From: Candidatus Solincola quzhuomuensis
GTDB lineage: Bacteria > Actinomycetota > Geothermincolia > Geothermincolales > RBG-13-55-18
Direction: 5' to 3'
Assembly (NCBI GenBank): GCA_015711855.1
Contig: JACVJF010000004.1
Coordinates: 1-60,695, forward strand
DNA length: 60,695 nucleotides
Of this stretch, positions 3,277 to 21,043 are shown piece by piece. A program made the translations under genes and the position numbers. The number at the start of each line of letters is the position of its first letter. Positions within the stretch are counted from its first letter, which is position 1. The notes under the pieces are model-generated. The model was given only the letters and a program-made list of their open reading frames with translations, did not search any database and was not told the DNA's origin.

Positions 3277-5121
3277 CTACCCTCCCGAGGGCTCTATCTC
3301 CATGATCACTTCGTCGTACTCCACGCCCTTGCCGTGTTCGGCCAGGATGCGCTTCACCCGGCCGTTCACCGGGGAGGGTATCTCGTTGAAGAGCTTCATG
3401 ACCTCGATGAGGCAGAGGGTTTGCCCTTCCCGGACCTCATCTCCCTCCTCCACGAAGGGGGGTGCGCCGGGGGAGGGGGTGCGGTAGAAGGTGCCCACCA
3501 TGGGGGACCTCACCTGCACCAGCCCCAATTCCTCCTTTTCCAGTTGGGCTACCGGCGCTCGCCGAGAGGGGGTCGAGGCCGTTTCCGCTTTTAAGGCTTG
3601 GCTCCCCAGGCTTATGGTCACGGAAAGGTTTTGCAGGGCCCTGCTCACCCCCTCGCTGACCACGTTGGCCAGCCTCTCCGAGAGTTCCTCCAGGTAGGTA
3701 CCGTCCAGCATGGCCCGTTCCCGCCTCTCCATAGCCTTCTGCGGGGGCTCCTCTTCTTCGTCGATCACGGGGTTCTTCCTCCACTGGAAGAACTTGAGGG
3801 CCACATCCGGGAAGATGGCGTAAGATATGTAGTCTTCTTCCTTCTCCACCAAGGAGGGATCCAGCTCCTTCTTGGCCTTGGGGAGTTCCGGCTCCAGGAG
3901 GTCCGCGGGACGGCAGGTGATAGGCTTTTCTCCCTTGAGCGCCTTCTCCATGAGCTCCTCGCTTATGGGCCCGGCCGGCTTGCCGTAATAGCCTTTTACG
4001 TAGTTCACGATCTCGCGAGGGATGATCTTGTACCTCTCTCCGAGAAGCACGTTGAAGACCGCTTGTGTGCCCACCAACTGGCTGGTGGGGGTGACCAGCG
4101 GAGGATAGCCCATGTCCTTCCTCACCCTGGGAATCTCTTCCAGGACCTCCTCCATCCGGTCCAAGGCGTTCTGTTGCTCCAGCTGGGCTATGAGGTTGGT
4201 GGCCATTCCCCCGGGTATTTGGTGGGAGATCACCGTGATGTCGATGAGGGGCTGTTCGGCGCCCATGAGCTTGCGCTTCTTGGACACCACCTCGAAATAT
4301 TCCGACACGTCGCGGATGGCCTCGAAGTCCAGGTCCAGCTCGTATTCTGTGTCCTTGAAGGAGGCCACCAGGGTCTCGATGGCCGGTTGGCTGGTGTAGA
4401 GGGCGAGAGGGGCCGCCGCACAATCCACGATGTCCGCGCCCGCTTCGATGGCCTTCAGATAGGAGGTGGTGGCCATCCCCGTGGAGGCGTGGGAATGGAG
4501 TTGTATGGGCACCTCCACCGCTTCCTTGAGTCGCTTGACCAACTCGTAGGCCACATAGGGGGCGAGGATCCCGGACATGTCCTTGATGCAGATGGAGTCG
4601 GCGCCCATATCCACCAGGGTCTTGGCCGTCTCCACGTACCCCTCGATGGTGTGCACCGGGCTGATCGTATAACAGATGGTGCCTTGGGCGTGGGCGCCCT
4701 CGCGCTTGGTGACCTCTATGGACTTCTGCATGTTGCGCACGTCGTTGAGGGCGTCGAAGATGCGGATGATGTCGATCCCCCCGGCCACCGCCCTCTTGAT
4801 GAACTCCTCCACCAGGTCGTCGGCGAAGTTGCGGTAGGCCACCAGGTTCTGTCCGCGCAGGAGCATCTGGAGCTTGGTGCGCTTGAACCTCTCCCGGATG
4901 CGGTAGAGACGGTCCCAGGGGTCTTCGTGGAGGTATCTCATACAGACGTCGAAGGTCGCCCCACCCCAGACCTCCACGGAATGGTAACCCACCTCGTCGA
5001 TGCGTTCGGCGATGGGAAGTATGTCCGTTAGATGCATGCGGGTAGCCCACAATGATTGATGGGCGTCCCGAAGCGTGGTGTCGGTTATCCTCACCCGCTT
5101 TTTCTTCCTTTCCATGCTCAC
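3277..5121 (-). CDS. pycB: Pyruvate carboxylase subunit B / OadA-type carboxyltransferase with C-terminal biotin carrier domain
   Basis: LRDAHQS, EVWGGATFD, IKDMSG, LHSH, PGGM and VTPTSQ motifs; C-terminal biotinylation motif EVMKLFNEI. Confidence 0.88.
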   Translation of the reverse strand: MSMERKKKRVRITDTTLRDAHQSLWATRMHLTDILPIAERIDEVGYHSVEVWGGATFDVCMRYLHEDPWDRLYRIRERFKRTKLQMLLRGQNLVAYRNFADDLVEEFIKRAVAGGIDIIRIFDALNDVRNMQKSIEVTKREGAHAQGTICYTISPVHTIEGYVETAKTLVDMGADSICIKDMSGILAPYVAYELVKRLKEAVEVPIQLHSHASTGMATTSYLKAIEAGADIVDCAAAPLALYTSQPAIETLVASFKDTEYELDLDFEAIRDVSEYFEVVSKKRKLMGAEQPLIDITVISHQIPGGMATNLIAQLEQQNALDRMEEVLEEIPRVRKDMGYPPLVTPTSQLVGTQAVFNVLLGERYKIIPREIVNYVKGYYGKPAGPISEELMEKALKGEKPITCRPADLLEPELPKAKKELDPSLVEKEEDYISYAIFPDVALKFFQWRKNPVIDEEEEPPQKAMERRERAMLDGTYLEELSERLANVVSEGVSRALQNLSVTISLGSQALKAETASTPSRRAPVAQLEKEELGLVQVRSPMVGTFYRTPSPGAPPFVEEGDEVREGQTLCLIEVMKLFNEIPSPVNGRVKRILAEHGKGVEYDEVIMEIEPSGG

Positions 5122-5423
5122 CCCTTAAACGGAATCGGATTTCGGTTACATTCTAACTTTTTTCCAGCCCCGTGCCCACCGGCGTATACCTGCGGTTCCT
5201 CGGTTTTCGGCTCTGACCGGCGAAGATATCGAAAAACCGCATTACCGTCCTTCTCGGGCCGCTTGCCCACCGGCATCCTTGGTTACCTGGTCCAGACTGG
5301 AGGACGGACCTTGAGTTCCATCCTGGTTTCTCGATCCTTTAACCCGAGTGCTCCGTGGCCTCGGCAGGCTACTTCCGCCCTCGTCTCAAGGCCTCTAGAA
5401 AGGCTTCGCCGCAACCCCCACCT

Positions 5424-6023
5424 TCAGGCGTTTCGCAGTCCTTTGGGGACGAGGGGGGCGAATGCCGCCGCCGCTGCGGCCTTGGCTAGGTCGACCAGGA
5501 TGAAGGGTTTAACCCCCAGTCTCCAAGCTAACGCGGCATTCTTCCCCTGCATGGAGAGCCACGTCCCGAGCCAGGTGGCCCCACAGGCGTATACGGCTGC
5601 CAGTCCGGCCAGGCAAGCCAGCGGCACGGAGAGCTTCCCCGGGAGACGCCGCCACCCTCGACCCGATAGGTTTCTCGAGATCCAGCCCGTGCAGCCCGCC
5701 GCCAAAATGAAGCCCCAGAGATACCCGCCCGTGGGGCCGAAAAGCACCAGAGGACCGGCGTGAGGAGGGGCGGCGAAGAAGGGAGCGCCACAGAATCCCA
5801 TGAGAAGGTAGACGGCTTGGCTGACCATTCCCCAAAAAGGCCCGAGCACTAGACCGGATAGGATGACGAAAAATAGCTGCATGGTCACCGGGACCGGGGA
5901 GAGGGGGATTCTGATCATGGCGCCTAGACCGGTGAGGGCGGCGAAGAGCACCGCCGTGGCGATCACCTCCGCGTCAATGGAGGAGGCTTTCGCCGGAACG
6001 CGTTTGGTCGATGAGATTTGCAT
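5424..6023 (-). CDS. bioY: BioY biotin transporter (ECF S-component)
   Basis: PVPVTMQ, YLLMG..GAP.F, GPTGGYLWGF and PFI..DLAK motifs; adjacent to biotin genes. Confidence 0.93.
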   Translation of the reverse strand: MQISSTKRVPAKASSIDAEVIATAVLFAALTGLGAMIRIPLSPVPVTMQLFFVILSGLVLGPFWGMVSQAVYLLMGFCGAPFFAAPPHAGPLVLFGPTGGYLWGFILAAGCTGWISRNLSGRGWRRLPGKLSVPLACLAGLAAVYACGATWLGTWLSMQGKNAALAWRLGVKPFILVDLAKAAAAAAFAPLVPKGLRNA

Positions 6024-6049
6024 GGGTTTTCTCCTTCCGGGTTTGTTAT

Positions 6050-6078
6050 ATTCTTAAGGAAAAAGGTGGTCATGTCAA
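6050..6078 (-). promoter_or_regulatory. Putative sigma70-type promoter for bioY
   Basis: TTGACA on the minus strand at 6078-6073, with an imperfect -10 (TAAGAAT) 16-17 nt downstream in an AT-rich divergent intergenic region. Confidence 0.45.
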
Positions 6079-6157
6079 GGGTTTTTCAGGATATAACTTT
6101 AGAAAAAGTGAACTTTTCTAAGGGCCGTTTCCAGCTTCCGTGAAAGGCGGCCGAAAG

Positions 6158-6925
6158 ATGGGAGCTTGGGATATTAGGGAATACGAGGTTCTGGATTCCA
6201 CCAACCTGGAGGCCCGTCGCCTACTCCTCGCCGGAGCTGGTGAGGGTCTGGTGGTGACCGCGGGACATCAAACCGCCGGGCGGGGAAGGTTGGATAGATG
6301 CTGGCTGGATCAACCGGGAAAAAGCCTGCTGGTCAGCATCGTTTTCGGCGACAGGGGCCTTTTTCTCGTTTCCGCCCTGGTGGGCTTGGCGGCCAGAGGG
6401 GCCATACGCGCCCTCGGAGGTGAGGGTCCCCTCCTGAAGTGGCCCAACGACCTGGTCTACGGAAGGCGGAAAGTGGGGGGGATCCTCAGCGAGGACTTCT
6501 CGGTAGGAGCTCGACGCTTCGTTATCGTGGGGTTGGGGATAAATCTGGGATATCTCCCCGGTGAGCTGCGGATTTCCGGAAAACTGGCCCCCACTTCCGT
6601 CCTAGTGGAAGAAGGGAGGATTTGGAAAAAGGAAGACGTGTTAAGCGTTTTTCTTCGAGAGGTTGAGGCGCGTTCCGTATTGATGGCGCAGGATCTATGG
6701 GCGGAATACGAAAAATGCTTGGCATACGTGGGGGAGACGGTGGAGGTGGAAGATTACGCTTTGTTTAACCGAAACGACTTTCCGAACCGGACTGGCAAGA
6801 AGCAGAGCGGCGGCGTCATCAAGGGGGTGCTCTTGGGGGTGGACGGGGAAGGCAACATGGTCATCCGGACGGAAAGCGGCCTTCATCGCGTGGCTTCCGG
6901 AGACCTGATCCCGCCGCCGGATTGA
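6158..6925 (+). CDS. birA: Biotin--protein ligase without N-terminal HTH (group I BirA)
   Basis: DSTN, QTAGRGR, KWPND, KVGGIL and GLGIN motifs; no DNA-binding domain. Confidence 0.93.
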   Translation: MGAWDIREYEVLDSTNLEARRLLLAGAGEGLVVTAGHQTAGRGRLDRCWLDQPGKSLLVSIVFGDRGLFLVSALVGLAARGAIRALGGEGPLLKWPNDLVYGRRKVGGILSEDFSVGARRFVIVGLGINLGYLPGELRISGKLAPTSVLVEEGRIWKKEDVLSVFLREVEARSVLMAQDLWAEYEKCLAYVGETVEVEDYALFNRNDFPNRTGKKQSGGVIKGVLLGVDGEGNMVIRTESGLHRVASGDLIPPPD

Positions 6926-6998: not shown

Positions 6999-7346
6999 TT
7001 AGGATGAGGGAGAGGACCTTTCCAAGCGGACGATTTGTCGCTTCTTCACACGGATATAATCGTTCAGGGAGTCGAGGTTGAGGCATTGGTTTAGATACGA
7101 GAGGTCCTTGAGCAAGGACCTGGACTGGGCTGTGTCGCCTGAGGAGATGGCCTCCTCCAGTCTACGTGTGATCTCCCGGGCGGTCTCCTCGATCTCATCC
7201 CGCATTTCCTGGCGGTCGCAGATCACCGGGTTACCGCAACGGGGGCATTCCCGGAAGACGAGCGGTCCGCAACACATGACGTTGCCGATGTGCCGGAACT
7301 CGTCGCCCTCACCCCGGTAACCGCATCGGTCGCAGGTTACTACCAT
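6999..7346 (-). CDS. MasE/delta-like rubredoxin-type small protein with C-terminal helical extension (paralogue 3)
   Basis: ATG at 7346 after AAGGAG. MVVTCDRCGYRGEGDEFRHIG...RECPRCGNPV matches the CxxC-x~24-CPxC pattern of the two proteins at 9949-10356. Confidence 0.65.
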   Translation of the reverse strand: MVVTCDRCGYRGEGDEFRHIGNVMCCGPLVFRECPRCGNPVICDRQEMRDEIEETAREITRRLEEAISSGDTAQSRSLLKDLSYLNQCLNLDSLNDYIRVKKRQIVRLERSSPSS

Positions 7347-7708
7347 GGCCTTTCTCCTTCCGCCCGCGGGCAAGTCGCCCACCCCGTCGCTCTCCGGGTC
7401 GGTGCCGGGTTCCCGACTCGAATCGAACAACTTTCTCCCCATACCGTCAGGTGAAGGGTGGCGGTAAGCTCCCGTGGGGCGGCTTCCATGATCCGGTCAC
7501 CGAGCCCTCACCGACCGAACCAAATGGGCAATACTTCTTTTCGAAAGGACCGCGTAAGAAATCGCCGGCCCAAGCGAATCATTAAAAGATAGGTGGCGTT
7601 TAAGGTTCCCATCCCTTCGGAGAAAAGGAACGACGCTTTTCAAATAACCGGGCACGGACCACCGTACCTTGTCGGGACGGGCGAGGCGTGCACCGTTCTT
7701 GATCGTTC

Positions 7709-7864
7709 TCAGCGCGCCTCGAAGTTCTCGCACTCGGCGTCATCGGCATTGTGCGGCTTGGCCGTGTAATACTCGCTCTTTCCGTCCGACTCGCGCCGCA
7801 CGCAGTCCCCCCGGCTGGGGTCCTCCTCAAGGGGAAAGAACCACTTGCAATCTCCACAACTCAT
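7709..7864 (-). CDS. assC: Fumarate-adding enzyme gamma subunit (BssC/AssC/MasC-like), 51 aa
   Basis: Not in the ORF track. GGAGGT RBS then MSCGDCKWFFPLEEDPSRGDCVRRESDGKSEYYTAKPHNADDAECENFEAR*. The CxxC-FFP...GDCV...KP...C..F pattern is typical of BssC-type gamma subunits. Confidence 0.88.
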   Translation of the reverse strand: MSCGDCKWFFPLEEDPSRGDCVRRESDGKSEYYTAKPHNADDAECENFEAR

Positions 7865-7994
7865 GTTCCACCTCCTGCCCGTTTCGACGAAGTCAACCGA
7901 TTAACTCTCTTTTTCCTCCTGCCGCCATCTCGCGATCACACGGTACCGGTGACCGGTAAAGAACCGGCTATGCCGACCCCTATCGACGCGCGGA

Positions 7995-8924
7995 TCAGCC
8001 GCCCACGGTGACCGTGAGGCTCCGCGAGGTGAAGATGTCCACGATTCCATACAGCTTTTCTTCAGGATATCCCGCGCCTTCGGGGAAGGGATATTCGAGG
8101 CCGAATATTCGATACTTGGCGCCCGCGTAAGGATGATAGGGGAGGATGTCCACCTCGCATTCCCGGCCGTTGCGGCACAAACCCCGGATGAAGTCGGCGG
8201 TACGGGAGAGGTTTTCCTCCCCGTCGTTGAACCCGGGGATGATGGGGATGCGGAAACGCAGCTCTCGGGCGTATTCCGCCAGCCGCCTGGCGTTCTCCAG
8301 GATGATCTCGTTGGAGGCGCCGCAGTGGGAGCGGTGCGCGGCGGAGTCCATGTGTTTGAGGTCCAACAGAAAGTAATCGGTAACCTCGATCATCCTCTCC
8401 AACGTTTCCCAGGCGGCGAAACCGCAGGTGTCCAAGGCCGTATTGAGTCCGCGCCCCTTGGCCTCCGCCAAAAGGTCGTAGGTGAACTCCGGCTGGGCCA
8501 GAGGCTCACCTCCGGAAACGGTCAGCCCTCCCCCCGAATGCTTATAGAAAGGCTTGTCCTTCTCCACCTCCGCAAGGACCTGGTCCACTGTCATCAGCTT
8601 GCCCCAGACCACGAGGGCCTCTTCCGGGCAGGCTTCGGCGCAGCGGAAACAGTCGATGCACCGTTCCCGGCGTATGCGGGGGAGACGAGGACCCTCCATC
8701 TCGACGGCTCCGGCGGGACATACCTCCAGGCATTTACCGCAACCCGTGCAGTTGTTGCGGTAGGGAAGAACTTCCGGGAATCGCCGGTTGCCCTCGGGAT
8801 TGTGGCACCAACGGCAGTTGAGCAGGCAACCTTTTAGAAACACCGTGGTCCGAATCCCCGGCCCGTCGCAGAGAGAATAGAACTGTATGTCGTTGACGTA
8901 TCCCGCCGTGTCCCTTCTTCCCAT
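7995..8924 (-). CDS. assD: Glycyl-radical enzyme activating enzyme (second copy, AssD-like)
   Basis: DGPGIRTTVFLKGCLLNCRWCHNPE radical SAM motif, two ferredoxin CxxCxxCxxxC insertions, SGGEP. Confidence 0.9.
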   Translation of the reverse strand: MGRRDTAGYVNDIQFYSLCDGPGIRTTVFLKGCLLNCRWCHNPEGNRRFPEVLPYRNNCTGCGKCLEVCPAGAVEMEGPRLPRIRRERCIDCFRCAEACPEEALVVWGKLMTVDQVLAEVEKDKPFYKHSGGGLTVSGGEPLAQPEFTYDLLAEAKGRGLNTALDTCGFAAWETLERMIEVTDYFLLDLKHMDSAAHRSHCGASNEIILENARRLAEYARELRFRIPIIPGFNDGEENLSRTADFIRGLCRNGRECEVDILPYHPYAGAKYRIFGLEYPFPEGAGYPEEKLYGIVDIFTSRSLTVTVGG

Positions 8925-8933
8925 CCTTCACCC

Positions 8934-9872
8934 TTATCCGCCGATAGTGGTGGCCAGACCTTGTTCTTCCAGGATGTCCTGCAAGTCGGCGATCTCGCTA
9001 GCCGCCAGGCTTTCCACGTCACGGTATTCCCATTCCCTTCCCAACCAGCGGTATTTGTCCTGGCACCAGTTGTGGAAGGGAAGGAGGTCTACCTGGATGA
9101 TGGAGGGACCCAGCCCGGCGAGGAAGCGGGCCACCTGCTCCATGTGTTCCGGGGAATCGTTGAAACCCGGGATGACCGGTATGCGCACGATCACGTCTGC
9201 GCCCACCTCCGCCAGGCGCCGGAGGTTGGCCAGGATGGGTGAGTTGTTCACCCCTGTACGCAGTAGATGCTGCTTGCCGCTGAGGCACTTGATGTCGTAG
9301 AGGAATATGTCCGTGTAGGGACGCATGGAATCCAGGATTTCCCATTCGCAAAAACCGCTCGTGTCCAAACAGTTGTGAATGCCCCGTTCCTTGGCCCCGC
9401 GCAGCAGCTCCCGGGTGAATTCGGGGAAGGCGGTCGGTTCTCCCCCCGTCAGGGTCATGCCTCCGCCGGAATTGATGTAGAAGGGCATGTCCCTTTCCAC
9501 CTCGTCGAGGATCTCCTCTACCGTCTTGGGTTCCCCGACGCGCACCAGTGCGCCGTAAAAGCAGGCCTCCACGCACTTCATGCAATGGTCGCAGCGGGTG
9601 AGGTCTATCTTGTAGTAGTGCTCGTCTTCCTCGTCACCGCGCAAGGCTATGGGTGGCTGGATGGCTCCCCGGGCACAGGAGTCGAAACACATCCCGCACT
9701 GCCTGCACAGTGAGGGTTTCCAGTATATCTCCGGATAGAAATGTATGCACTCCGGGTTGTGGCACCAGGCGCAGTTCAGCCTGCATCCCTTGACGAAAAC
9801 CGTGGTGCGGATGCCCGGGCCGTCGTTTATGGAATAGCGCTGGATGTTGGTGATCAAGACCTGTTGAGACAT
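8934..9872 (-). CDS. assD: Glycyl-radical enzyme activating enzyme (first copy, AssD/MasG-like)
   Basis: DGPGIRTTVFVKGCRLNCAWCHNPE, two ferredoxin-like cysteine clusters, TGGEP, LLPFH. ATG at 9872 after GGGAG. Confidence 0.9.
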   Translation of the reverse strand: MSQQVLITNIQRYSINDGPGIRTTVFVKGCRLNCAWCHNPECIHFYPEIYWKPSLCRQCGMCFDSCARGAIQPPIALRGDEEDEHYYKIDLTRCDHCMKCVEACFYGALVRVGEPKTVEEILDEVERDMPFYINSGGGMTLTGGEPTAFPEFTRELLRGAKERGIHNCLDTSGFCEWEILDSMRPYTDIFLYDIKCLSGKQHLLRTGVNNSPILANLRRLAEVGADVIVRIPVIPGFNDSPEHMEQVARFLAGLGPSIIQVDLLPFHNWCQDKYRWLGREWEYRDVESLAASEIADLQDILEEQGLATTIGG

Positions 9873-9948
9873 TAAAGGACTCCCTTTTCCTTCCTTCCTG
9901 CGCCGAGGCCGCCACGATGTGCCGTGCGGATAACCGGTGTCGCGCACG

Positions 9949-10128
9949 TCAGGCGTTCTCTCTCTGCAGTTGCTTCTCGGCCCTCTCCTCCTCCAGCTCG
10001 TTCACCACCACCCAGGCATAGCACTGCGGGCACTCGCGGTACGCGGTCTCCGCATCCAAGGTGGTGTTGTAGAGGTAGCGAAAGTCGGACTTCACTCCCT
10101 CATATCCGCAGTTCTCGCACTTGACCAC
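9949..10128 (-). CDS. masE: MasE/delta-like rubredoxin-type small subunit (paralogue 2), 59 aa
   Basis: Not in the ORF track. GTG start after GGAGGT: MVKCENCGYEGVKSDFRYLYNTTLDAETAYRECPQCYAWVVVNELEEERAEKQLQRENA*. The CxxCG...FRYxYN...RxCPxC...V.EL pattern resembles MasE as I recall it. Confidence 0.8.
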   Translation of the reverse strand: MVKCENCGYEGVKSDFRYLYNTTLDAETAYRECPQCYAWVVVNELEEERAEKQLQRENA

Positions 10129-10131
10129 GGC

Positions 10132-10356
10132 TCATACCTCCCTGTTCTTACCGCTGAATTTCCTACCCCATATGTCGCTCAGGCCCCATGGTCTTTCGTC
10201 TTCGCTTTCTCCGTCTCTCTGCTCCAGTTCGTCCACGGGAAACGGGTTGAGGCAGATGGGGCACCGACGAATGGTGACGGGTCCCACCTCTGCCTGGGCC
10301 ACGAGTTGGAACTCCCCCAGAGACCCGTAGCGACCGCATCTCGGACAGACGACCAT
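10132..10356 (-). CDS. MasE/delta-like rubredoxin-type small subunit (paralogue 1)
   Basis: MVVCPRCG...EF...RRCPICLNPFPVDELE...PWG; packed between the beta-like gene and paralogue 2. Confidence 0.72.
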   Translation of the reverse strand: MVVCPRCGRYGSLGEFQLVAQAEVGPVTIRRCPICLNPFPVDELEQRDGESEDERPWGLSDIWGRKFSGKNREV

Positions 10357-10372
10357 GATGCTCGTGAGAAGG

Positions 10373-10672
10373 CTATTTCTCCTCTATCTGCCTCTGCGGA
10401 CGGAATTGAGGATCCCACATGAACTCGCTGGTATCCGTCCGGACCCGGTCGATCTCCTTGTAATGCGGGCAGTCGCTGGCATCGGTGTTGTCGAAGACCG
10501 GCTTGTTCTTCTCCCCGATCTTGATGGCCGTGCACAACCCGTCGCCTGCCGCCGATGCGGAGTTCTGCCGGAAGTTACTGCACATGGCGCAAGCCTTCTC
10601 CGGCATCTCCCGGCGTCCCTTGGAGATGGCTCCCTGGAGCCACTGCTGCCGCAGCTGTTCCCAATCGCTCAT
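10373..10672 (-). CDS. assB: Fumarate-adding enzyme beta-like Fe-S small subunit (AssB/MasB-like)
   Basis: 99 aa with four Cys (CAMC...GDGLC...DCPHY) spaced like FAE small subunits; immediately downstream of the alpha-subunit gene. Confidence 0.75.
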   Translation of the reverse strand: MSDWEQLRQQWLQGAISKGRREMPEKACAMCSNFRQNSASAAGDGLCTAIKIGEKNKPVFDNTDASDCPHYKEIDRVRTDTSEFMWDPQFRPQRQIEEK

Positions 10673-10736
10673 CGCTCTACCCCCTTCTCAAGCGGCCATG
10701 ATCGTGCGAGCCGCGACGATTCCAGGCTGACCCCGT

Positions 10737-13226
10737 TCAAACGCCGAGCTCCTGCACGTTGCGGGCGATGATGGTGTCCTGGGTCTTCTTGTTCAGGTCC
10801 ACGAAGTGGGCACTGTATCCGGCGATACGCACGATGAGCTCGGGGTACTTTTCGGGTTCCCTCTGGGCGGCCTTCAGGGTCTCGTTATCCACCATGTTGA
10901 ACTGCACGTGGTCGATCCCCAGCTCGGCCCAGGTCTTGATGTAGGAGTGCCAGATGTGGAAACCCTTTTCGCCGGCCAACTGCTGCGGGGACAGCCTTTG
11001 GTTGAGCAGGGTCGCCCGCACGTCTCCTATGTGGTCGATCTTGGCCACCGAGCGCAGGACGGCCGTGGGCCCTTTCTTGTCCAGGCCCGCTCCGGGAGAG
11101 CAGCCGCCGTCGTACAGGGTATCGCCCAGCCTCCTGCCGTTGGGCAGGGCCCACACCTTGGTGGCGTTGGTCACGTAAGCCGCGATGTTCTCCGGCAGCG
11201 GAGGCCAGGGGTTCCCGGTGGGATCCTTAATCTCCCAGGAGTGCTTGGCCACGTCGCGGTGGCAACGCACGTGTATCTGATCCACGTAGTCGTCGTCGTT
11301 GCCCCACTTGGGAGCGCGCACGAAATCCATGCGCATCTCCTCGTACCCCTCCCAGTTGTTCCTGAGGGCCTCGATGAGCTGGGCCATGGTGTACTTCTTC
11401 TCGTCGAAAACCAACTTCTTTACCGCGGCCAAGCTGTCGCCCGTCTCCATCCAGGCGAAGAAGGTGATCCAGGAATTGCCGCGTTCCGAGGGATGGGAGG
11501 AGTCCACCCCCAGCTCCACGCACCGTTCGTACAGGCCCGAAAGTAGCGGCCTGGGATCCAGGAATTGGGCCATGTAACGGCCTCCGTTGGTCAGCTTGAC
11601 CAGCGTGTCCATCATCCACTTGACCTGGGTGTACCAAGCCTGATAGAGCTCCTCGAAGGTCTCGAACTTGGAGGCGTCACCGGTGTGGGGCCCGAACTGC
11701 ATCTGGAGCACGTTGTCGTAACCGTCGAAGAGTGCGTATTCGATGGCCTTGGCGGCGATGATGGTGGCGTTGGCCATGCGGAAGGGCTGGCACCCCAGCT
11801 TGGTGTCCGGGCAGGGAGACATGCAGGCCTGGTGCACCCAGCGCCGCGCCTCCCGCAGGGGATGCTTGTGCCAGTGCATGGCGTTGGTGATGAGGATGGG
11901 GTCGTTGCGCATGGACGGATACCCCAAGCCCTGGCGAATGCACTCGAACACCTCCCGGAGCGTCTTCATCCTCACGTTCGGATGGTAGCGGAAGGCGAAG
12001 GTGGGGTTGGCCACCCTGACCAAGCGGGCCGCCTCCAAAAGGCAGTCGGTCATGTCGTTGCAGGCGTCGGTGCCGTCCTCGTTGACCCCTCCTATAGTCC
12101 ACACCCAGGTCCCGGTGATTCCCTGCAGGGTATCGCGGGCCAGCATCAGCCAGAACCACCCTACCTCATAGCAGCGGATGAGAAACTCCCCGGTGAGGTC
12201 CAGGGCTTCTTCGTGGGTGAGGACTTTATCCTGGTTGACGTCCTTGTCGTAGAAAGGCCCGTGCCAGTAATCGGGGCGGGCGGGCCAGGCTCCCTCGCAG
12301 GCCTCGTAGCGGCAGGCGATCTGGATGAAGTGGTCGAACTGGAGGGACTCGTGAAGGTGCTCCGGGGGCTTGGCAGGAACCTTCCAGCAGACCTCGGCGA
12401 TGCGCAGGAGCTCTTCCTTGCGCTTGGGATCGGTCTCGAAGTTCTCCGCGATTATCTTGGCCAGGCGGCTGTAACGTCGGGCCCAGCGAATGACCGCCTC
12501 CAGCACCACCTTCATGGACTTCCAGACGTCGAGTTTCTCGTAATAAGGAAGGTCTTCCGGGTCGGGGACCTTGTTGTAGATGCGGTCCTCCGCCTCCTTT
12601 ATGCGCTCGTCGATCTCGGCGATTATTCCCTCCAGACCCAGTCGGAACATGTAATCCCACTGCTTGGTGGCGTATCCTATGCGGGAGATGGGAAGACCCC
12701 AGCCTATGACCCCGGTGAGGAGCTTCACGATCTCCTCGGGCGGCACCAAGTTGAAGACCTTGGCCCCTGTGGTCTGAGGGTTCCAGTAATCGCAGAGCTC
12801 TCGGATGAGCTTCAGGTTCTCGTCCACCGGTTCAGGTATGACCGTCCGGTCGTTGTAGAGGTCCTCGTTGAGTAGGAAGAGGATCTCCGGGTGCCAGACG
12901 ATGGTGTGGGGCCGGGAGCCCAAGTACCCCATTATCTGGGCATGGTCCTGGATGAATATGGTGATGTTGTCGAAGACGTTGGCAAGGGCCTTGGCGTAGC
13001 GCATGCGCAGTGAGTCGTGTTCGTTCGCCTTAAAGGCCTCGGTGAACAGGACCGCTCGCTCAAGGTCGACCTTTACCCCAGGCTGATAGCCCGATCCCTT
13101 GGCTCCCTTCTTCCATACCGCCTTGCGCAGGTAATCCAGCCTTTTGGACCTCTTGTGTTCCGCCCACCACCACCATTGTCCGCTCTTTTCGATCTCCTCG
13201 ATGGTTCTCGTTTCCACCGCAGCCAT
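10737..13226 (-). CDS. assA: Alkylsuccinate synthase alpha subunit (AssA/MasD), glycyl-radical fumarate-adding enzyme
   Basis: About 829 aa PFL-family protein. Cys loop HQACMSPCP is followed by PFRMA (position of the fumarate-binding Arg). Gly loop is VRIAGYSAHF. N-terminal WWW.AE..RSKRLDYLRK.VWKKG is AssA/MasD-like rather than BssA-like. Confidence 0.92.
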   Translation of the reverse strand: MAAVETRTIEEIEKSGQWWWWAEHKRSKRLDYLRKAVWKKGAKGSGYQPGVKVDLERAVLFTEAFKANEHDSLRMRYAKALANVFDNITIFIQDHAQIMGYLGSRPHTIVWHPEILFLLNEDLYNDRTVIPEPVDENLKLIRELCDYWNPQTTGAKVFNLVPPEEIVKLLTGVIGWGLPISRIGYATKQWDYMFRLGLEGIIAEIDERIKEAEDRIYNKVPDPEDLPYYEKLDVWKSMKVVLEAVIRWARRYSRLAKIIAENFETDPKRKEELLRIAEVCWKVPAKPPEHLHESLQFDHFIQIACRYEACEGAWPARPDYWHGPFYDKDVNQDKVLTHEEALDLTGEFLIRCYEVGWFWLMLARDTLQGITGTWVWTIGGVNEDGTDACNDMTDCLLEAARLVRVANPTFAFRYHPNVRMKTLREVFECIRQGLGYPSMRNDPILITNAMHWHKHPLREARRWVHQACMSPCPDTKLGCQPFRMANATIIAAKAIEYALFDGYDNVLQMQFGPHTGDASKFETFEELYQAWYTQVKWMMDTLVKLTNGGRYMAQFLDPRPLLSGLYERCVELGVDSSHPSERGNSWITFFAWMETGDSLAAVKKLVFDEKKYTMAQLIEALRNNWEGYEEMRMDFVRAPKWGNDDDYVDQIHVRCHRDVAKHSWEIKDPTGNPWPPLPENIAAYVTNATKVWALPNGRRLGDTLYDGGCSPGAGLDKKGPTAVLRSVAKIDHIGDVRATLLNQRLSPQQLAGEKGFHIWHSYIKTWAELGIDHVQFNMVDNETLKAAQREPEKYPELIVRIAGYSAHFVDLNKKTQDTIIARNVQELGV

Positions 13227-13607
13227 TTTCAACCCCCTTATCTCTCGTCTTTCTTACGGGAATCGTCAGCTGGCTTTGCCGGCACGAAAAGGCTCCGTGA
13301 TCGTTTCCCCCAAAGCCGCTTACCGCCATCCCCCCTCTCCTCTCCGTCGGTCCCGCGTGACCTCTCCAAGTAAAGCGTCGAAGAAAAGCCCTTTGGACAA
13401 CTCTCCGTTGCTGCGTTGCGGCGATGCCTTGTGCGGACCTTTTCTCGTGCTGGGGTGCGTCTGCTGCGAAGAAAGGTAGATGCTGTGCAAGAAATTGTTC
13501 GATCGTCGCTTACCTACTCATTCCCTCAAAAAATTCAACTTGTATTTAGTAACCAGTTCTTAATTTTTATTATATTTCCTAATAAACTGGTATGTTAATT
13601 TGCCTTA

Positions 13608-19018: not shown

Positions 19019-21043
19019 TCAATCCATCACCGTCTCGCACCTCAGGAGCTCCACCTTAAGGCCCGTTTCCCTGGCGATATCGAGGTATGCCCGACCGGTT
19101 AGGTCCCTTCCCCAGCGGCTGAGATGGAAGGGGGAGGAGGGAATGATCACCAGGTCGGGCTTCTCGCCGTGTTTTTCCATCCATTCTTGGAGGTGGTCTA
19201 TGTAGTCCTTCACCACCAGCAGGTCTCCGAGCATTATGTTTCCCCCGAAGAAGCGATTCTCCGGAACGCTCAGTCGCAGTTCCGAGCCCTCCGGGAGGTT
19301 GATCGGGTTTTCCTCCAGCAGCTGTTCCAGGGTGGGGCGGACAAGACGCGAGGTGAGGAGAAGGACCAGGCGTGCCTCCGATCGGCGCACCATGCCCTCC
19401 AGGACCCGGAGGTAGGAGACTCGCAGACCGCTCCCCATGAAGGCCACCCCCAAGTGGGTTCCGGTGTGAAAGTCGAAAGGATAAGAGTACCGGCGAGTCT
19501 CTCCGCCTAGCTCCACCGCTTTGCCATCCCTTCTCACCAGGAGAGAGACCTTTTCCTCCCCGCTATTCTGAAGCAGGGTTAGCAAGTCGCGGGCCTGGGG
19601 ACGGTTGAGCACGTTGATCCCGTTAATCCGAAGGATGACGTCTCCCGGTCTGAGTCCCCAGGATTTTGCCGGAGAGTTGGGTACCAGCCCGATCACCTCC
19701 GGAAGGTTCTTTCGCTCCCGGGTGAGGTTCTCCTCGTAAAGCGCGGGGCTCAACACCAGAGGGCAGGGAAGGTCGCTGCGCATTTCCCCTACCAGCCGTA
19801 CCACGGCGCCCCATACCTCCTCGGTGTCGAAGAGCGGTGTCGAGGAGAAGAACCTAGAGTAACCGGGAAGGTTGACCTGAACCAGCCGCGCCCCGCAGCC
19901 CGCGGCGTAGGCGCAGGTCCTCTCCAAGTCCCGCAGCATCTCCTCCAAGGAGGGTTCCGGCCAGGCCACCACGGTGACGGCGAAGGGAATGGCCGCATCC
20001 GCCAGCCTGGGGAGAGAGTGGATGGCCGTCTCGGGTCTCCGGTCCCCCATGAGGAAGGAGCGCCGGGCGGGGTCGGAGCTGTTGAGGGAGACGTCCAGAA
20101 AGAGAGGGGCTAGGCCTGCCAGCTCCTCGACGAAAGCCTTATCCAGGCGGCAGCCGTTGGTGGCCAGACGGAAGGGCGCGTCGGTCCTCTCCCGCAGGCG
20201 GCGGAGCAGAGGTATGATGCGCGGATGGGCCAGCGCCTCACGGGGTCCGCCGAAGGTGGGGAAAAGACCTCGCCGCGCCAGAGGGCGGTAGTGGGCGATC
20301 CTGGCTTCCAGTCTCTTCCAGTCGCTTACCGGGTCGGCTGGCGGCTGCATGAGGGAGGGGAGGGATCCTCGGTGATAACAGAACCGGCATCGACAATCGC
20401 ACCGGTCGGCGGCATGGAGTATCACGTCCTCCGCGCTGTCCACCGGGGCGTCCGTCCAGTCGGAAAGGCGGCGCAGCCGGAACCCGTCCACCTCCACCGG
20501 CTGGCCCTCGCGCTCCAGCTGCACCAGCGAGAGCAGGCTCTCCAGCTGGCGGGCCAGGAAGTCCAGGCGGGGCTCGTAGAGGGCCGCGTTGGCCCGACTC
20601 AGGAAAGGCGGGACCGGATACCCCCGGGAGTTGGCCCTTTTCGACGGGCCGGCTATGCAGGAGCGCTCCTGGGGAGGACTTATAATTCTCGGTCGTGCTT
20701 GGCGATTTTCGTCCGCCTCGTAGGATTCGGTTACCGAATCGTTTTTCGAAGTGGGATATATGTCGTGCACCGCCCCGTCCGGGCCCAGAAAGCGGAAGCC
20801 GTCCACCTCCACCTCCCTACCTCCCTCCAGGAGGCGTATCACGGACAAGAGGTTGCGGAGTTGCTCGCGTATCAGCTGCACGTGAGGATCCGGTCCCCGC
20901 GACCCGCCTCCGGCTTGTCGCAAGGGATAGCGGAAAAGAGCCCCTTCGACCTCCTCCGCCCCCGTTGTCGCAGCGGGGGCGGTATTTCGGGCCGCCGACT
21001 CGCGCTCCGCCGAGAGCCGCTGACGTTCCATCCTCGTCACCAC
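19019..21043 (-). CDS. Radical SAM protein with PDZ-like and C-terminal DUF512-like domains
   Basis: CDCRCRFC motif; PDZ-like SPA...GLRPGDVILRING; DUF512-like ENRFFGGNIMLGDLL...D. Start position uncertain. Confidence 0.75.
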   Translation of the reverse strand: MVTRMERQRLSAERESAARNTAPAATTGAEEVEGALFRYPLRQAGGGSRGPDPHVQLIREQLRNLLSVIRLLEGGREVEVDGFRFLGPDGAVHDIYPTSKNDSVTESYEADENRQARPRIISPPQERSCIAGPSKRANSRGYPVPPFLSRANAALYEPRLDFLARQLESLLSLVQLEREGQPVEVDGFRLRRLSDWTDAPVDSAEDVILHAADRCDCRCRFCYHRGSLPSLMQPPADPVSDWKRLEARIAHYRPLARRGLFPTFGGPREALAHPRIIPLLRRLRERTDAPFRLATNGCRLDKAFVEELAGLAPLFLDVSLNSSDPARRSFLMGDRRPETAIHSLPRLADAAIPFAVTVVAWPEPSLEEMLRDLERTCAYAAGCGARLVQVNLPGYSRFFSSTPLFDTEEVWGAVVRLVGEMRSDLPCPLVLSPALYEENLTRERKNLPEVIGLVPNSPAKSWGLRPGDVILRINGINVLNRPQARDLLTLLQNSGEEKVSLLVRRDGKAVELGGETRRYSYPFDFHTGTHLGVAFMGSGLRVSYLRVLEGMVRRSEARLVLLLTSRLVRPTLEQLLEENPINLPEGSELRLSVPENRFFGGNIMLGDLLVVKDYIDHLQEWMEKHGEKPDLVIIPSSPFHLSRWGRDLTGRAYLDIARETGLKVELLRCETVMD

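What the first reader, a model, noticed from the sequence alone, without database searches (positions are those of the whole stretch)
6999..10356. Three divergent MasE/delta-subunit paralogues, one missed by ORF calling
Seen: three small proteins (10132-10356, 9949-10128, 6999-7346) share MV(V)xCxxCG(Y/R)xGxxx(E/D)F(R/Q)-x~13-R(E/R)CPxC. The second keeps FRYxYN and the first keeps VDEL...PWG, both features I recall from the single MasE of characterised alkane-activating enzymes. Established: MasE is a rubredoxin-like subunit specific to alkylsuccinate synthases and implicated in oligomer assembly. Inference: the delta subunit has been triplicated and sub-functionalised, implying a heteromeric delta scaffold or swappable subunits, a composition I do not know to be described.
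Basis: partly seen in the sequence, partly recalled or inferred. Interest (0 to 1): 0.85.

Follow-up and report, generated by a model that had tools for sequence, protein, structure and literature searches.

The report
Three MasE-like proteins, alkane enzyme operon
An operon for the enzyme that lets bacteria attack alkanes without oxygen carries three related copies of its small iron-binding delta subunit, and these turn out to be three old, widespread gene families rather than a local oddity.

Summary
On the minus strand an Actinomycetota MAG carries a full alkylsuccinate synthase operon: alpha, MasB-like beta, d1 (10132-10356), d2 (9949-10128), two activases, MasC-like gamma and d3 (6999-7346). 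For all three small proteins the best solved-structure match is MasE, the delta subunit of MASS (9o8u_D): 0.025, 1.7e-10 and 0.015 as single sequences, 1.6e-12 and 6e-8 for the d1 and d3 family profiles.

This is not a local triplication. In a tree of 55 MasE-like proteins from 27 ass loci the copies fall into three old clades: S/E (d2, a tail-less orthologue of canonical MasE), T (d1, tail-bearing) and L (d3, with a C-terminal three-helix bundle). 21 of 27 delta-bearing loci hold two or three such genes, across at least five phyla. 14 of the 15 genomes with a match, among 41 of the window's class, hold exactly three.

All three are under purifying selection. Tail-less S goes with T in 13 of 14 loci. 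The second activase paralogue occurs only with T (6 of 6).

L-type genes in other phyla carry an in-frame TGA followed by a hairpin where the window has Cys-Cys, so they are probably selenoproteins.

I found no paper describing these paralogues. Binding and function remain untested.

The parts
10737..13232 (-). Alkylsuccinate/(1-methylalkyl)succinate synthase alpha subunit (glycyl radical enzyme), 831 aa
   Evidence: 1118 bits to MasD 9o8u_A against 569 bits to benzylsuccinate synthase alpha. Pfam PFL-like and Gly_radical.
10373..10672 (-). Beta subunit, MasB-like, 99 aa
   Evidence: E 4e-10 to 9o8u_B MasB. Weak HPIP_like match.
10132..10356 (-). d1: T-clade MasE paralogue, 74 aa. Rubredoxin-like knuckles plus a PWGLSDIWGRKF tail.
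   Evidence: E 0.025 to 9o8u_D alone; family profile E 1.6e-12. The AF2 model's top PDB match is 9o8u_D, rmsd 1.2 A over 45 columns, and the tail has pLDDT about 50. dN/dS 0.23-0.39. T clade in the tree.
9949..10128 (-). d2: S-type orthologue of canonical MasE (delta), 59 aa, GTG start, FRYLYN core, no C-terminal tail
   Evidence: E 1.7e-10 to 9o8u_D. S+E clade 98/91. dN/dS 0.02-0.12. Starts 3 nt after the d1 stop, behind AGGGAGG.
8934..9872 (-). Activating enzyme AE1 (radical SAM). This is the type found in every activase-bearing locus examined.
   Evidence: TIGR02494 E 1.4e-101. 50-87% identical to the activases of the 18 other activase-bearing loci.
7995..8924 (-). Second activating-enzyme paralogue AE2, 43.5% identical to AE1
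   Evidence: TIGR02494 E 6.7e-100. Orthologues occur only in L015, L017, L064, L024 and L026, all of which also hold a T-type gene.
7709..7864 (-). Gamma subunit, MasC/BssC-like, 51 aa
   Evidence: Pfam BssC_TutF E 6.6e-14. E 1.4e-11 to 9o8u_C.
6999..7346 (-). d3: L-clade MasE paralogue, 115 aa. N-terminal rubredoxin-like ribbon with a Cys25-Cys26 pair in the inter-knuckle loop, then a three-helix bundle.
   Evidence: E 0.015 to 9o8u_D alone; family profile E 6e-8. AF2 pLDDT 86 with helices 45-69, 72-89 and 92-111. L clade 100/98. dN/dS 0.07-0.26. Cys25 aligns with the in-frame TGA of relatives.

Best explanation
SHOWN. The window holds a complete alkylsuccinate synthase (ASS/MASS) operon of an Actinomycetota MAG. 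Its three small Cys proteins are genuine homologues of the delta subunit MasE. They represent three old paralogue families that travel with ass operons in several phyla:
- S/E: d2 is the orthologue of canonical MasE but lacks the tail.
- T: d1 is fast-evolving and carries a W-G...(W/R)G(R/Q)xF basic tail.
- L: d3 joins a rubredoxin-like ribbon to a three-helix bundle. It carries a vicinal Cys-Cys in the loop where other lineages encode TGA, probably selenocysteine.

INFERRED MECHANISM.
- d2 docks like the rubredoxin domain of MasE on alpha/beta.
- d1 is made in step with d2 by translational coupling. It supplies the charged tail that in MASS lies on the glycyl radical domain, at the surface where the activase must dock. 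So d1 and d2 together do what the single tailed MasE does. d1 is also functionally tied to the extra activase AE2.
- d3 is not a redundant copy. It is a redox-active or metal-binding accessory of the same machinery that uses its Cys-Cys (elsewhere Sec-Cys) pair.
For: Identity
- Alpha, beta and gamma match the MASS chains.
- 9o8u_D is the top PDB sequence hit for all three small proteins.
- The family profiles hit it at 1.6e-12 (T) and 6e-8 (L).
- hhalign gives T against S/E 99.3% and L against S/E 97.7%.
- The d1 model's best PDB fold match is 9o8u_D.

Age and spread
- Tree clades are L 100/98, T 93/78 and S+E 98/91.
- 21 of 27 delta-bearing loci hold at least two paralogues.
- 14 of the 15 genomes with a match, among 41 searched in the window's class (window's own genome included), have exactly three matches.
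- The whole family is small: 78 clusters at E <= 1e-3 among 1.84 billion representatives.

Selection: dN/dS is 0.02-0.12 (d2), 0.07-0.26 (d3) and 0.23-0.39 (d1).

Split-delta idea
- 13 of 14 loci with tail-less S also hold T, and the 14th is a 4.5-kb contig. Only 2 of 10 loci with tailed E hold T.
- T and S genes abut or overlap in Actinomycetota, L067 (Peptococcaceae) and L066.
- The MasE tail makes electrostatic contacts with the glycyl radical domain (PMC12358834, passages).
- The d1 tail is charged and is predicted to be disordered when alone.

T-AE2 link
- AE2-type activases occur in 6 loci, and all 6 hold T.
- The 3 Actinomycetota loci with one activase have T genes whose PWG tail has diverged.

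d3
- 13 of 13 L-type genes that are split by a stop have TGA at the column where the Cys-forms have Cys.
- A hairpin follows the UGA in 11 of 11 UPA-type Sec forms, mean -13.0 kcal/mol, against -5.5 in 7 Cys-forms.
- selB scores over its cut-off in 4 of 5 Sec-form genomes.
Against: - No binding, metal or expression data exist for any of the three.
- T also co-occurs with tail-bearing E in L024 and L026. There it sits beside the activases, not beside E. So T is not simply a replacement tail.
- In L016, L018 and L060, S is tail-less and T has lost the PWG motif, which the split-delta model does not explain.
- The T clade has only 93/78 support, from 90 alignment columns.
- The co-occurrence counts come from related, non-independent loci, many of them cut by contig ends.
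- dS is mostly above 1, so the dN/dS values are rough.
- The Foldseek match of the d3 N-domain to 9o8u_D is weak: rank 11, E 0.91.
- 2 of 7 Cys-forms keep the hairpin.
- Rfam found no SECIS at gathering score.
- The window's own genome has selB, yet its d3 uses Cys.
Confidence: 0.55

Rival explanations
1. One reading: the single delta gene was triplicated in this lineage and the copies then sub-functionalised.
For: The three are homologous. The MasE hallmarks are divided between d1 and d2.
Against: Each copy is closer to genes of other phyla than to its neighbours. The L, T and S+E clades each span several phyla. The same families co-occur in Peptococcaceae, Dehalococcoidales, Desulfatibacillaceae and other loci.
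Confidence: 0.07
2. d1 (T) is not a resting-state subunit. It is an adaptor or partner of the second activase AE2, a delta look-alike that holds or releases the glycyl radical domain during activation. d2 alone is the delta subunit.
For: AE2 occurs only with T (6 of 6 loci). T lies directly beside the activases in L024, L026, L086 and the window. The T tail diverges where AE2 is absent (3 of 3 Actinomycetota loci). MASS delta occupies the activase docking region (PMC12358834 abstract).
Against: T occurs with a single AE1-type activase in L086. T-S translational coupling and the tail-less state of S point to joint action with S. The sample is small and the loci are related.
Confidence: 0.25
3. 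The paralogues are alternative, swappable occupants of the one delta site, serving as isoforms for different states or conditions.
For: All share the knuckle geometry and the F16/R30 core. The solved complex is asymmetric, with delta on only one alpha (PMC12358834 abstract).
Against: They sit in one operon, and d1-d2 are coupled, which argues for co-production rather than alternation. The FRYLYN surface is invariant only in S/E.
Confidence: 0.1
4. The extra copies are decaying duplicates or chance zinc ribbons with no role.
For: d1 evolves fast, at 42-53% identity among close relatives whose alpha subunits are 90-98% identical. Single-sequence E-values to MasE are marginal for d1 and d3.
Against: dN/dS is below 0.4 for all three. 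The trio is kept in 14 of 15 matching genomes of the class, spread over 6 genera. Profile E-values are 1.6e-12 and 6e-8. No further copy exists elsewhere in the genome.
Confidence: 0.03

Closest known systems
MasE / MASS delta subunit of (1-methylalkyl)succinate synthase, Azoarcus sp. HxN1 (PDB 9O8U chain D; PMC12358834)
   Same: The four-Cys rubredoxin-like knuckles sit at the same positions. The genes lie in an operon with the alpha, beta, gamma and activase genes. d2 shares the FRYxYN core (E 1.7e-10). d1 shares VDEL...PWG and has a predicted fold at rmsd 1.2 A.
   Different: HxN1 has one 71-aa protein that combines core and tail. Here the core (d2, 59 aa, no tail) and a tail-bearing copy (d1) are separate genes. 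A third copy (d3) replaces the tail with a three-helix bundle and adds a Cys-Cys pair.
Canonical single 'MasE-like protein' of Smithella and Desulfobacterota ass operons (PMC13685792, PMC7180275; passages read)
   Same: Same family and same operon context. These are the E-type sequences in my survey, with FRYLYNARIDA and a PWGKSAGIE tail.
   Different: Those papers mention one MasE-like gene per operon in the passages I read. My survey finds an L-type gene next to E in 6 of 10 E loci, and a T-type gene in 2 of 10.
BSS beta subunit of benzylsuccinate synthase
   Same: A small metal-binding accessory that restrains the glycyl radical domain. This is the proposed functional analogy in PMC12358834.
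   Different: It has a HiPIP-like [4Fe-4S] fold and is not homologous. Pfam BssB_TutG does not match d1, d2 or d3.
Bacterial selenoproteins with Cys-containing homologues and UxxC, CU or UC redox motifs (general knowledge, recalled)
   Same: L-type relatives have TGA aligned to Cys, a Cys within 1-3 residues, a hairpin after the UGA, and selB in the genome.
   Different: No known selenoprotein family was matched. The window's own copy is the Cys-Cys form. The fold is a zinc-ribbon/rubredoxin type, not thioredoxin-like.

Membership tests
MasE / MASS delta | Four Cys in two CX2C knuckles at positions equivalent to MasE Cys3/6/32/35 | tested here: met
   C4, C7, C32 and C35 (d1 numbering) are invariant in all three proteins and in 20 family members, and they align to the MasE Cys.
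MasE / MASS delta | Significant sequence similarity to the solved MasE chain | tested here: met
   d2 scores 1.7e-10. d1 (0.025) and d3 (0.015) are marginal alone, but 9o8u_D is still their top hit. The T profile scores 1.6e-12 and the L profile 6e-8.
MasE / MASS delta | Rubredoxin-like fold | tested here: inconclusive
   The d1 model's top PDB match is 9o8u_D (prob 1.00, rmsd 1.2 A over 45 columns) but E is only 0.029. The d3 N-domain matches 9o8u_D at rank 11, E 0.91. d2 was not modelled.
MasE / MASS delta | C-terminal tail of about 20 residues (PWGKS) that lies on the glycyl radical domain | tested here: not met
   d2 ends about 12 residues after the second knuckle region and has no PWG. 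d3 has a helical bundle instead. Only d1 has a PWG-containing tail. Contact with the domain itself could not be tested.
MasE / MASS delta | Encoded with the alpha, beta, gamma and activase genes of an alkylsuccinate synthase | tested here: met
   Operon map of the window and 26 other loci. 18 of 19 activase-bearing loci hold at least one delta-family gene.
MasE / MASS delta | Binds one Fe ion and binds alpha next to beta and the glycyl radical domain | not testable with these tools
   This needs purification, metal analysis or a structure.
Alkylsuccinate synthase (alkane-type X-succinate synthase) alpha | Closer to MasD than to benzylsuccinate synthase alpha, with a glycyl radical domain | tested here: met
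   1118 against 569 bits. Gly_radical E 2.7e-28. The substrate was not tested.
Selenoprotein (applies to L-type relatives, not to the window's d3) | In-frame TGA aligned to Cys of homologues, a downstream hairpin, and Sec machinery in the genome | tested here: met
   13 of 13 are TGA. The hairpin is present in 11 of 11 UPA-type forms. selB is over its cut-off in 4 of 5 genomes. No Rfam SECIS was found. Selenium incorporation is untested. The window's d3 has TGT-TGC (Cys-Cys).

The most novel reading that the evidence does not exclude
The L-type paralogue (d3 here) defines an undescribed selenoprotein/Cys-protein family dedicated to anaerobic alkane activation. A Sec-Cys (here Cys-Cys) pair on a MasE-like ribbon, held by a three-helix bundle, would act chemically on the glycyl radical enzyme or its activase, for example by reductive protection, quenching or repair of the radical site. 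Together with a split d1+d2 delta, the enzyme would then be a six-component system (alpha, beta, gamma, S, T, L), not the four-component one just solved.
Probability: 0.3. Interest if true: 0.85.

Novelty: new variant of a known kind. Interest (0 to 1): 0.66.

Why it matters
The delta subunit of alkane-activating glycyl radical enzymes was first seen in a structure in 2025, and its role was called enigmatic. According to the passages I read, it sits where the activase must dock.

This work shows that most ass operons encode two or three delta-family proteins. One lineage splits the core and the tail between two coupled genes. A third family carries a probable selenocysteine. That gives concrete handles on three open problems:
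- How the glycyl radical is installed and guarded.
- Why heterologous expression of these enzymes gives poor, unstable complexes.
- Which small genes must be included when reconstituting alkane activation for bioremediation or biocatalysis.

It also flags small ORFs that gene callers truncate or split at TGA.

Tried and rejected
Complex prediction. Alpha + d2 + d1, each with its own alignment and d1 as partner, returned 'no answer' (score 0.00, controls not run). I do not use it either way.

Expression. No RNA holder was listed for window:6900-13300.

Rfam at gathering score found no SECIS in the 8 Sec-form loci, only a 5S rRNA in L086.

Pfam and NCBIfam gave only sub-threshold zinc-ribbon hits for d1, d2 and d3. 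No curated family exists for them.

A plasmid search with alpha found only unrelated glycyl radical enzymes at about 30% identity. I therefore could not inspect an annotated ass cluster of a named isolate. HxN1 and AK-01 themselves were not examined. The Desulfatibacillaceae genomes are unnamed.

The word-based search with d2 alone gave 10 close relatives and no names of use. With alignment A2 it gave 83 proteins, nearly all labelled 'hypothetical'.

Literature. No paper holds 'selenoprotein' together with 'alkylsuccinate synthase'. The search on selenoprotein / Desulfatibacillum / selenocysteine gave nothing relevant. The searches on masE, assB, assC and assF gave papers that mention a single MasE-like protein in the passages I read. 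Supplements were not seen and may list more genes.

Rejected readings: chance zinc ribbons, pseudogenes and a lineage-specific triplication (see rivals).


Full report
WHAT IS THERE

On the minus strand of 6999-13232 lies a complete operon for an alkane-type X-succinate synthase.
- The 831-aa glycyl radical enzyme (10737-13232) scores 1118 bits to MasD of the solved MASS complex (9o8u_A), against 569 bits to benzylsuccinate synthase alpha.
- It is followed by a 99-aa MasB-like beta (E 4e-10 to 9o8u_B).
- Then come d1 (10132-10356, 74 aa) and d2 (9949-10128, 59 aa, GTG start).
- Two radical-SAM activases follow, AE1 (8934-9872) and AE2 (7995-8924) (TIGR02494 E 1e-101 and 7e-100).
- Next is a 51-aa MasC/BssC-like gamma (Pfam BssC_TutF 6.6e-14; 1.4e-11 to 9o8u_C).
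- After a 362-nt gap comes d3 (6999-7346, 115 aa).
- The flanks fit the fumarate-addition pathway. They encode a biotin transcarboxylase subunit, BioY, biotin ligase, enoyl-CoA hydratase, an AMP-forming ligase, MmgE/PrpD, and a B12-binding protein with a methylmalonyl-CoA-mutase-type protein.
- The closest public contigs are Actinomycetota MAGs, with alpha 90-98% identical. One d1 relative is labelled Candidatus Solincola sp. by its source.

CHECK OF THE OBSERVATION

The three small proteins share two CxxC knuckles and 12 invariant columns. Pairwise BLASTP E-values are 4e-8 to 5e-11. A profile of the three finds only these three in the 2.69-Mb genome; the next hit has E 0.014.

In the abstract and passages I read of PMC12358834, masE encodes MASS delta. 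[quoted passage not shown] Its C-terminal tail of about 20 residues makes many electrostatic contacts with the glycyl radical domain, in the region where the activase must dock.

Against all PDB sequences, 9o8u_D is the top hit of each protein.
- d2 scores 1.7e-10 over the FRYLYN core.
- d1 scores 0.025, with the alignment running through VDEL and PWG.
- d3 scores 0.015.

The family profiles remove the doubt.
- The T-type profile scores 1.6e-12.
- The L-type profile scores 6e-8.
- hhalign gives 99.3% and 97.7% probability against the S/E profile.

The AF2 models agree with this.
- The d1 model (pLDDT 72.5, tail about 50) has 9o8u_D as its best PDB match, rmsd 1.2 A over 45 columns, E 0.029.
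- The d3 model (pLDDT 86) is a ribbon plus a three-helix bundle. Its ribbon matches 9o8u_D only at rank 11, E 0.91.

NOT A LOCAL TRIPLICATION

I fetched 72 AssA loci from species-representative genomes. I scanned their six-frame ORFs, together with the first 24 kb of the window, using an iterated profile.
- 46 of the 73 stretches have no delta-family gene. These are mostly short contigs or extra alpha copies without an activase.
- 18 of 19 activase-bearing loci have at least one delta-family gene.

After merging ORFs split by TGA, 27 loci hold delta-family genes: 8 hold three, 13 hold two and 6 hold one.

A maximum-likelihood tree of 55 proteins gives three clades.
- L: 16 rows, support 100/98.
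- T: 15 rows, support 93/78.
- S+E: 24 rows, support 98/91, with the canonical tailed E type nested inside at 100/97.
- One truncated row was dropped and one row was trimmed before the tree was built.

The window's d3, d1 and d2 fall in L, T and S respectively. Each groups with genes from other phyla: Bacillota, Chloroflexota, Thermodesulfobacteriota and unclassified MAGs.

Further counts point the same way.
- Of 41 genomes of the window's class (the window's own included), 15 have matches, and 14 of those have exactly three.
- In the Desulfatibacillaceae, 10 of 12 species genomes have 2-5 matches. The two 6.5-Mb genomes have two loci each.
- The family is small overall: 78 clusters at E <= 1e-3 among 1.84 billion representatives.

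The papers I could search speak of a single MasE-like protein. I did not see their supplements.

ARE THEY FUNCTIONAL?

Pairwise dN/dS among Actinomycetota orthologues is 0.02-0.12 for d2, 0.07-0.26 for d3 and 0.23-0.39 for d1. dS is mostly above 1, so these values are rough. d1 was computed on 4 of 7 orthologues.

The d1 tail PWGLSD(I/V)WGR(K/R)F recurs in metagenomic relatives.

HOW IT MAY WORK (INFERENCE)

Tail-less S goes with T in 13 of 14 loci, and the exception is a 4.5-kb contig. Tailed E goes with T in 2 of 10 loci. T and S abut or overlap in three phyla. I therefore favour a two-gene delta. d2 would be the docking core. d1 would carry the charged tail for the glycyl radical domain.

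A second pattern complicates this.
- AE2 is a distinct activase paralogue, 43.5% identical to AE1.
- It is present in only 6 loci, all of which hold T.
- The three Actinomycetota loci with one activase have T genes that lost PWG.
- In L024 and L026, T lies beside the activases although a tailed E is present.

So T may instead, or also, be the partner of AE2. These counts are small, and the loci are related to one another.

d3 AND SELENOCYSTEINE

In 13 of 13 L-type genes that a stop splits, the stop is TGA. It lies at the column where the Cys-forms have Cys. A Cys always lies within 1-3 residues, in the motifs U-P-A-C, C-U, U-C and U-P-A-T-G-C. The window has Cys25-Cys26.

In the 11 UPA-type forms a hairpin of 5-10 base pairs starts a few bases (about 6-9 nt) after the UGA.
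- Its mean energy is -13.0 kcal/mol.
- The same stretch in 7 Cys-forms gives -5.5 kcal/mol, and 5 of those 7 lack the hairpin although they encode much the same peptide, G(E/A)SD(L/M)R or GASELR.
- selB passes its cut-off in 4 of 5 Sec-form genomes, and also in the window's genome.
- Rfam saw no SECIS.

This argues that the L loop is chemically active rather than purely structural.

VERDICT

The homology to MasE is confirmed. 'Triplicated here' is wrong. A heteromeric or staged use of delta paralogues is plausible but untested. The paralogue families and the probable selenoprotein appear to be undescribed in the literature I could search.

Noticed in passing
L026:13480-13821, L034:11620-11970, L037, L041, L066, L071, L073, L086 and L087-L091; aligned to window 7269-7274: L-type MasE paralogues in Thermodesulfobacteriota, Chloroflexota and other MAGs carry an in-frame TGA exactly where the window's d3 has Cys25. 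A hairpin follows the UGA and selB is present in the genome. This is a probable undescribed selenoprotein family.
   Followed up: partly
window 7995-8924 (AE2) against 8934-9872 (AE1): The operon has two activase paralogues, 43.5% identical. AE2-type orthologues occur only in loci that also hold a T-type delta gene (6 of 6). Three related loci that lack AE2 have T genes with diverged tails.
   Followed up: partly
L056, L057, L065, L066, L080, L082, L083 and others: Several MAGs carry tandem arrays of two to four alpha-subunit paralogues. Most have no activase or delta genes of their own beside them.
   Followed up: no
window 10132-10356: The public protein collection stores d1 as a 56-aa product from an internal start (P0079). 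That call removes the first CxxC knuckle.
   Followed up: partly
window 7347-7708: A 362-nt non-coding gap separates gamma from d3. The gap is 348 nt in L015 and 162 nt in L017, and is absent in L016. d3 may have its own promoter.
   Followed up: no
window 19019-21043: A 674-aa radical-SAM protein with a PDZ domain lies between the B12-binding protein and the mutase genes of the ass island.
   Followed up: no
P0103 (1355 aa) and P0137 (1916 aa): Two very long proteins match the delta-family profile in 20 and 14 separate stretches. They probably hold arrays of unrelated zinc ribbons.
   Followed up: no
window 3277-6925: A transcarboxylase/oxaloacetate-decarboxylase-type biotin enzyme, BioY and a biotin ligase sit directly downstream of the ass operon. 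This fits fumarate regeneration.
   Followed up: no
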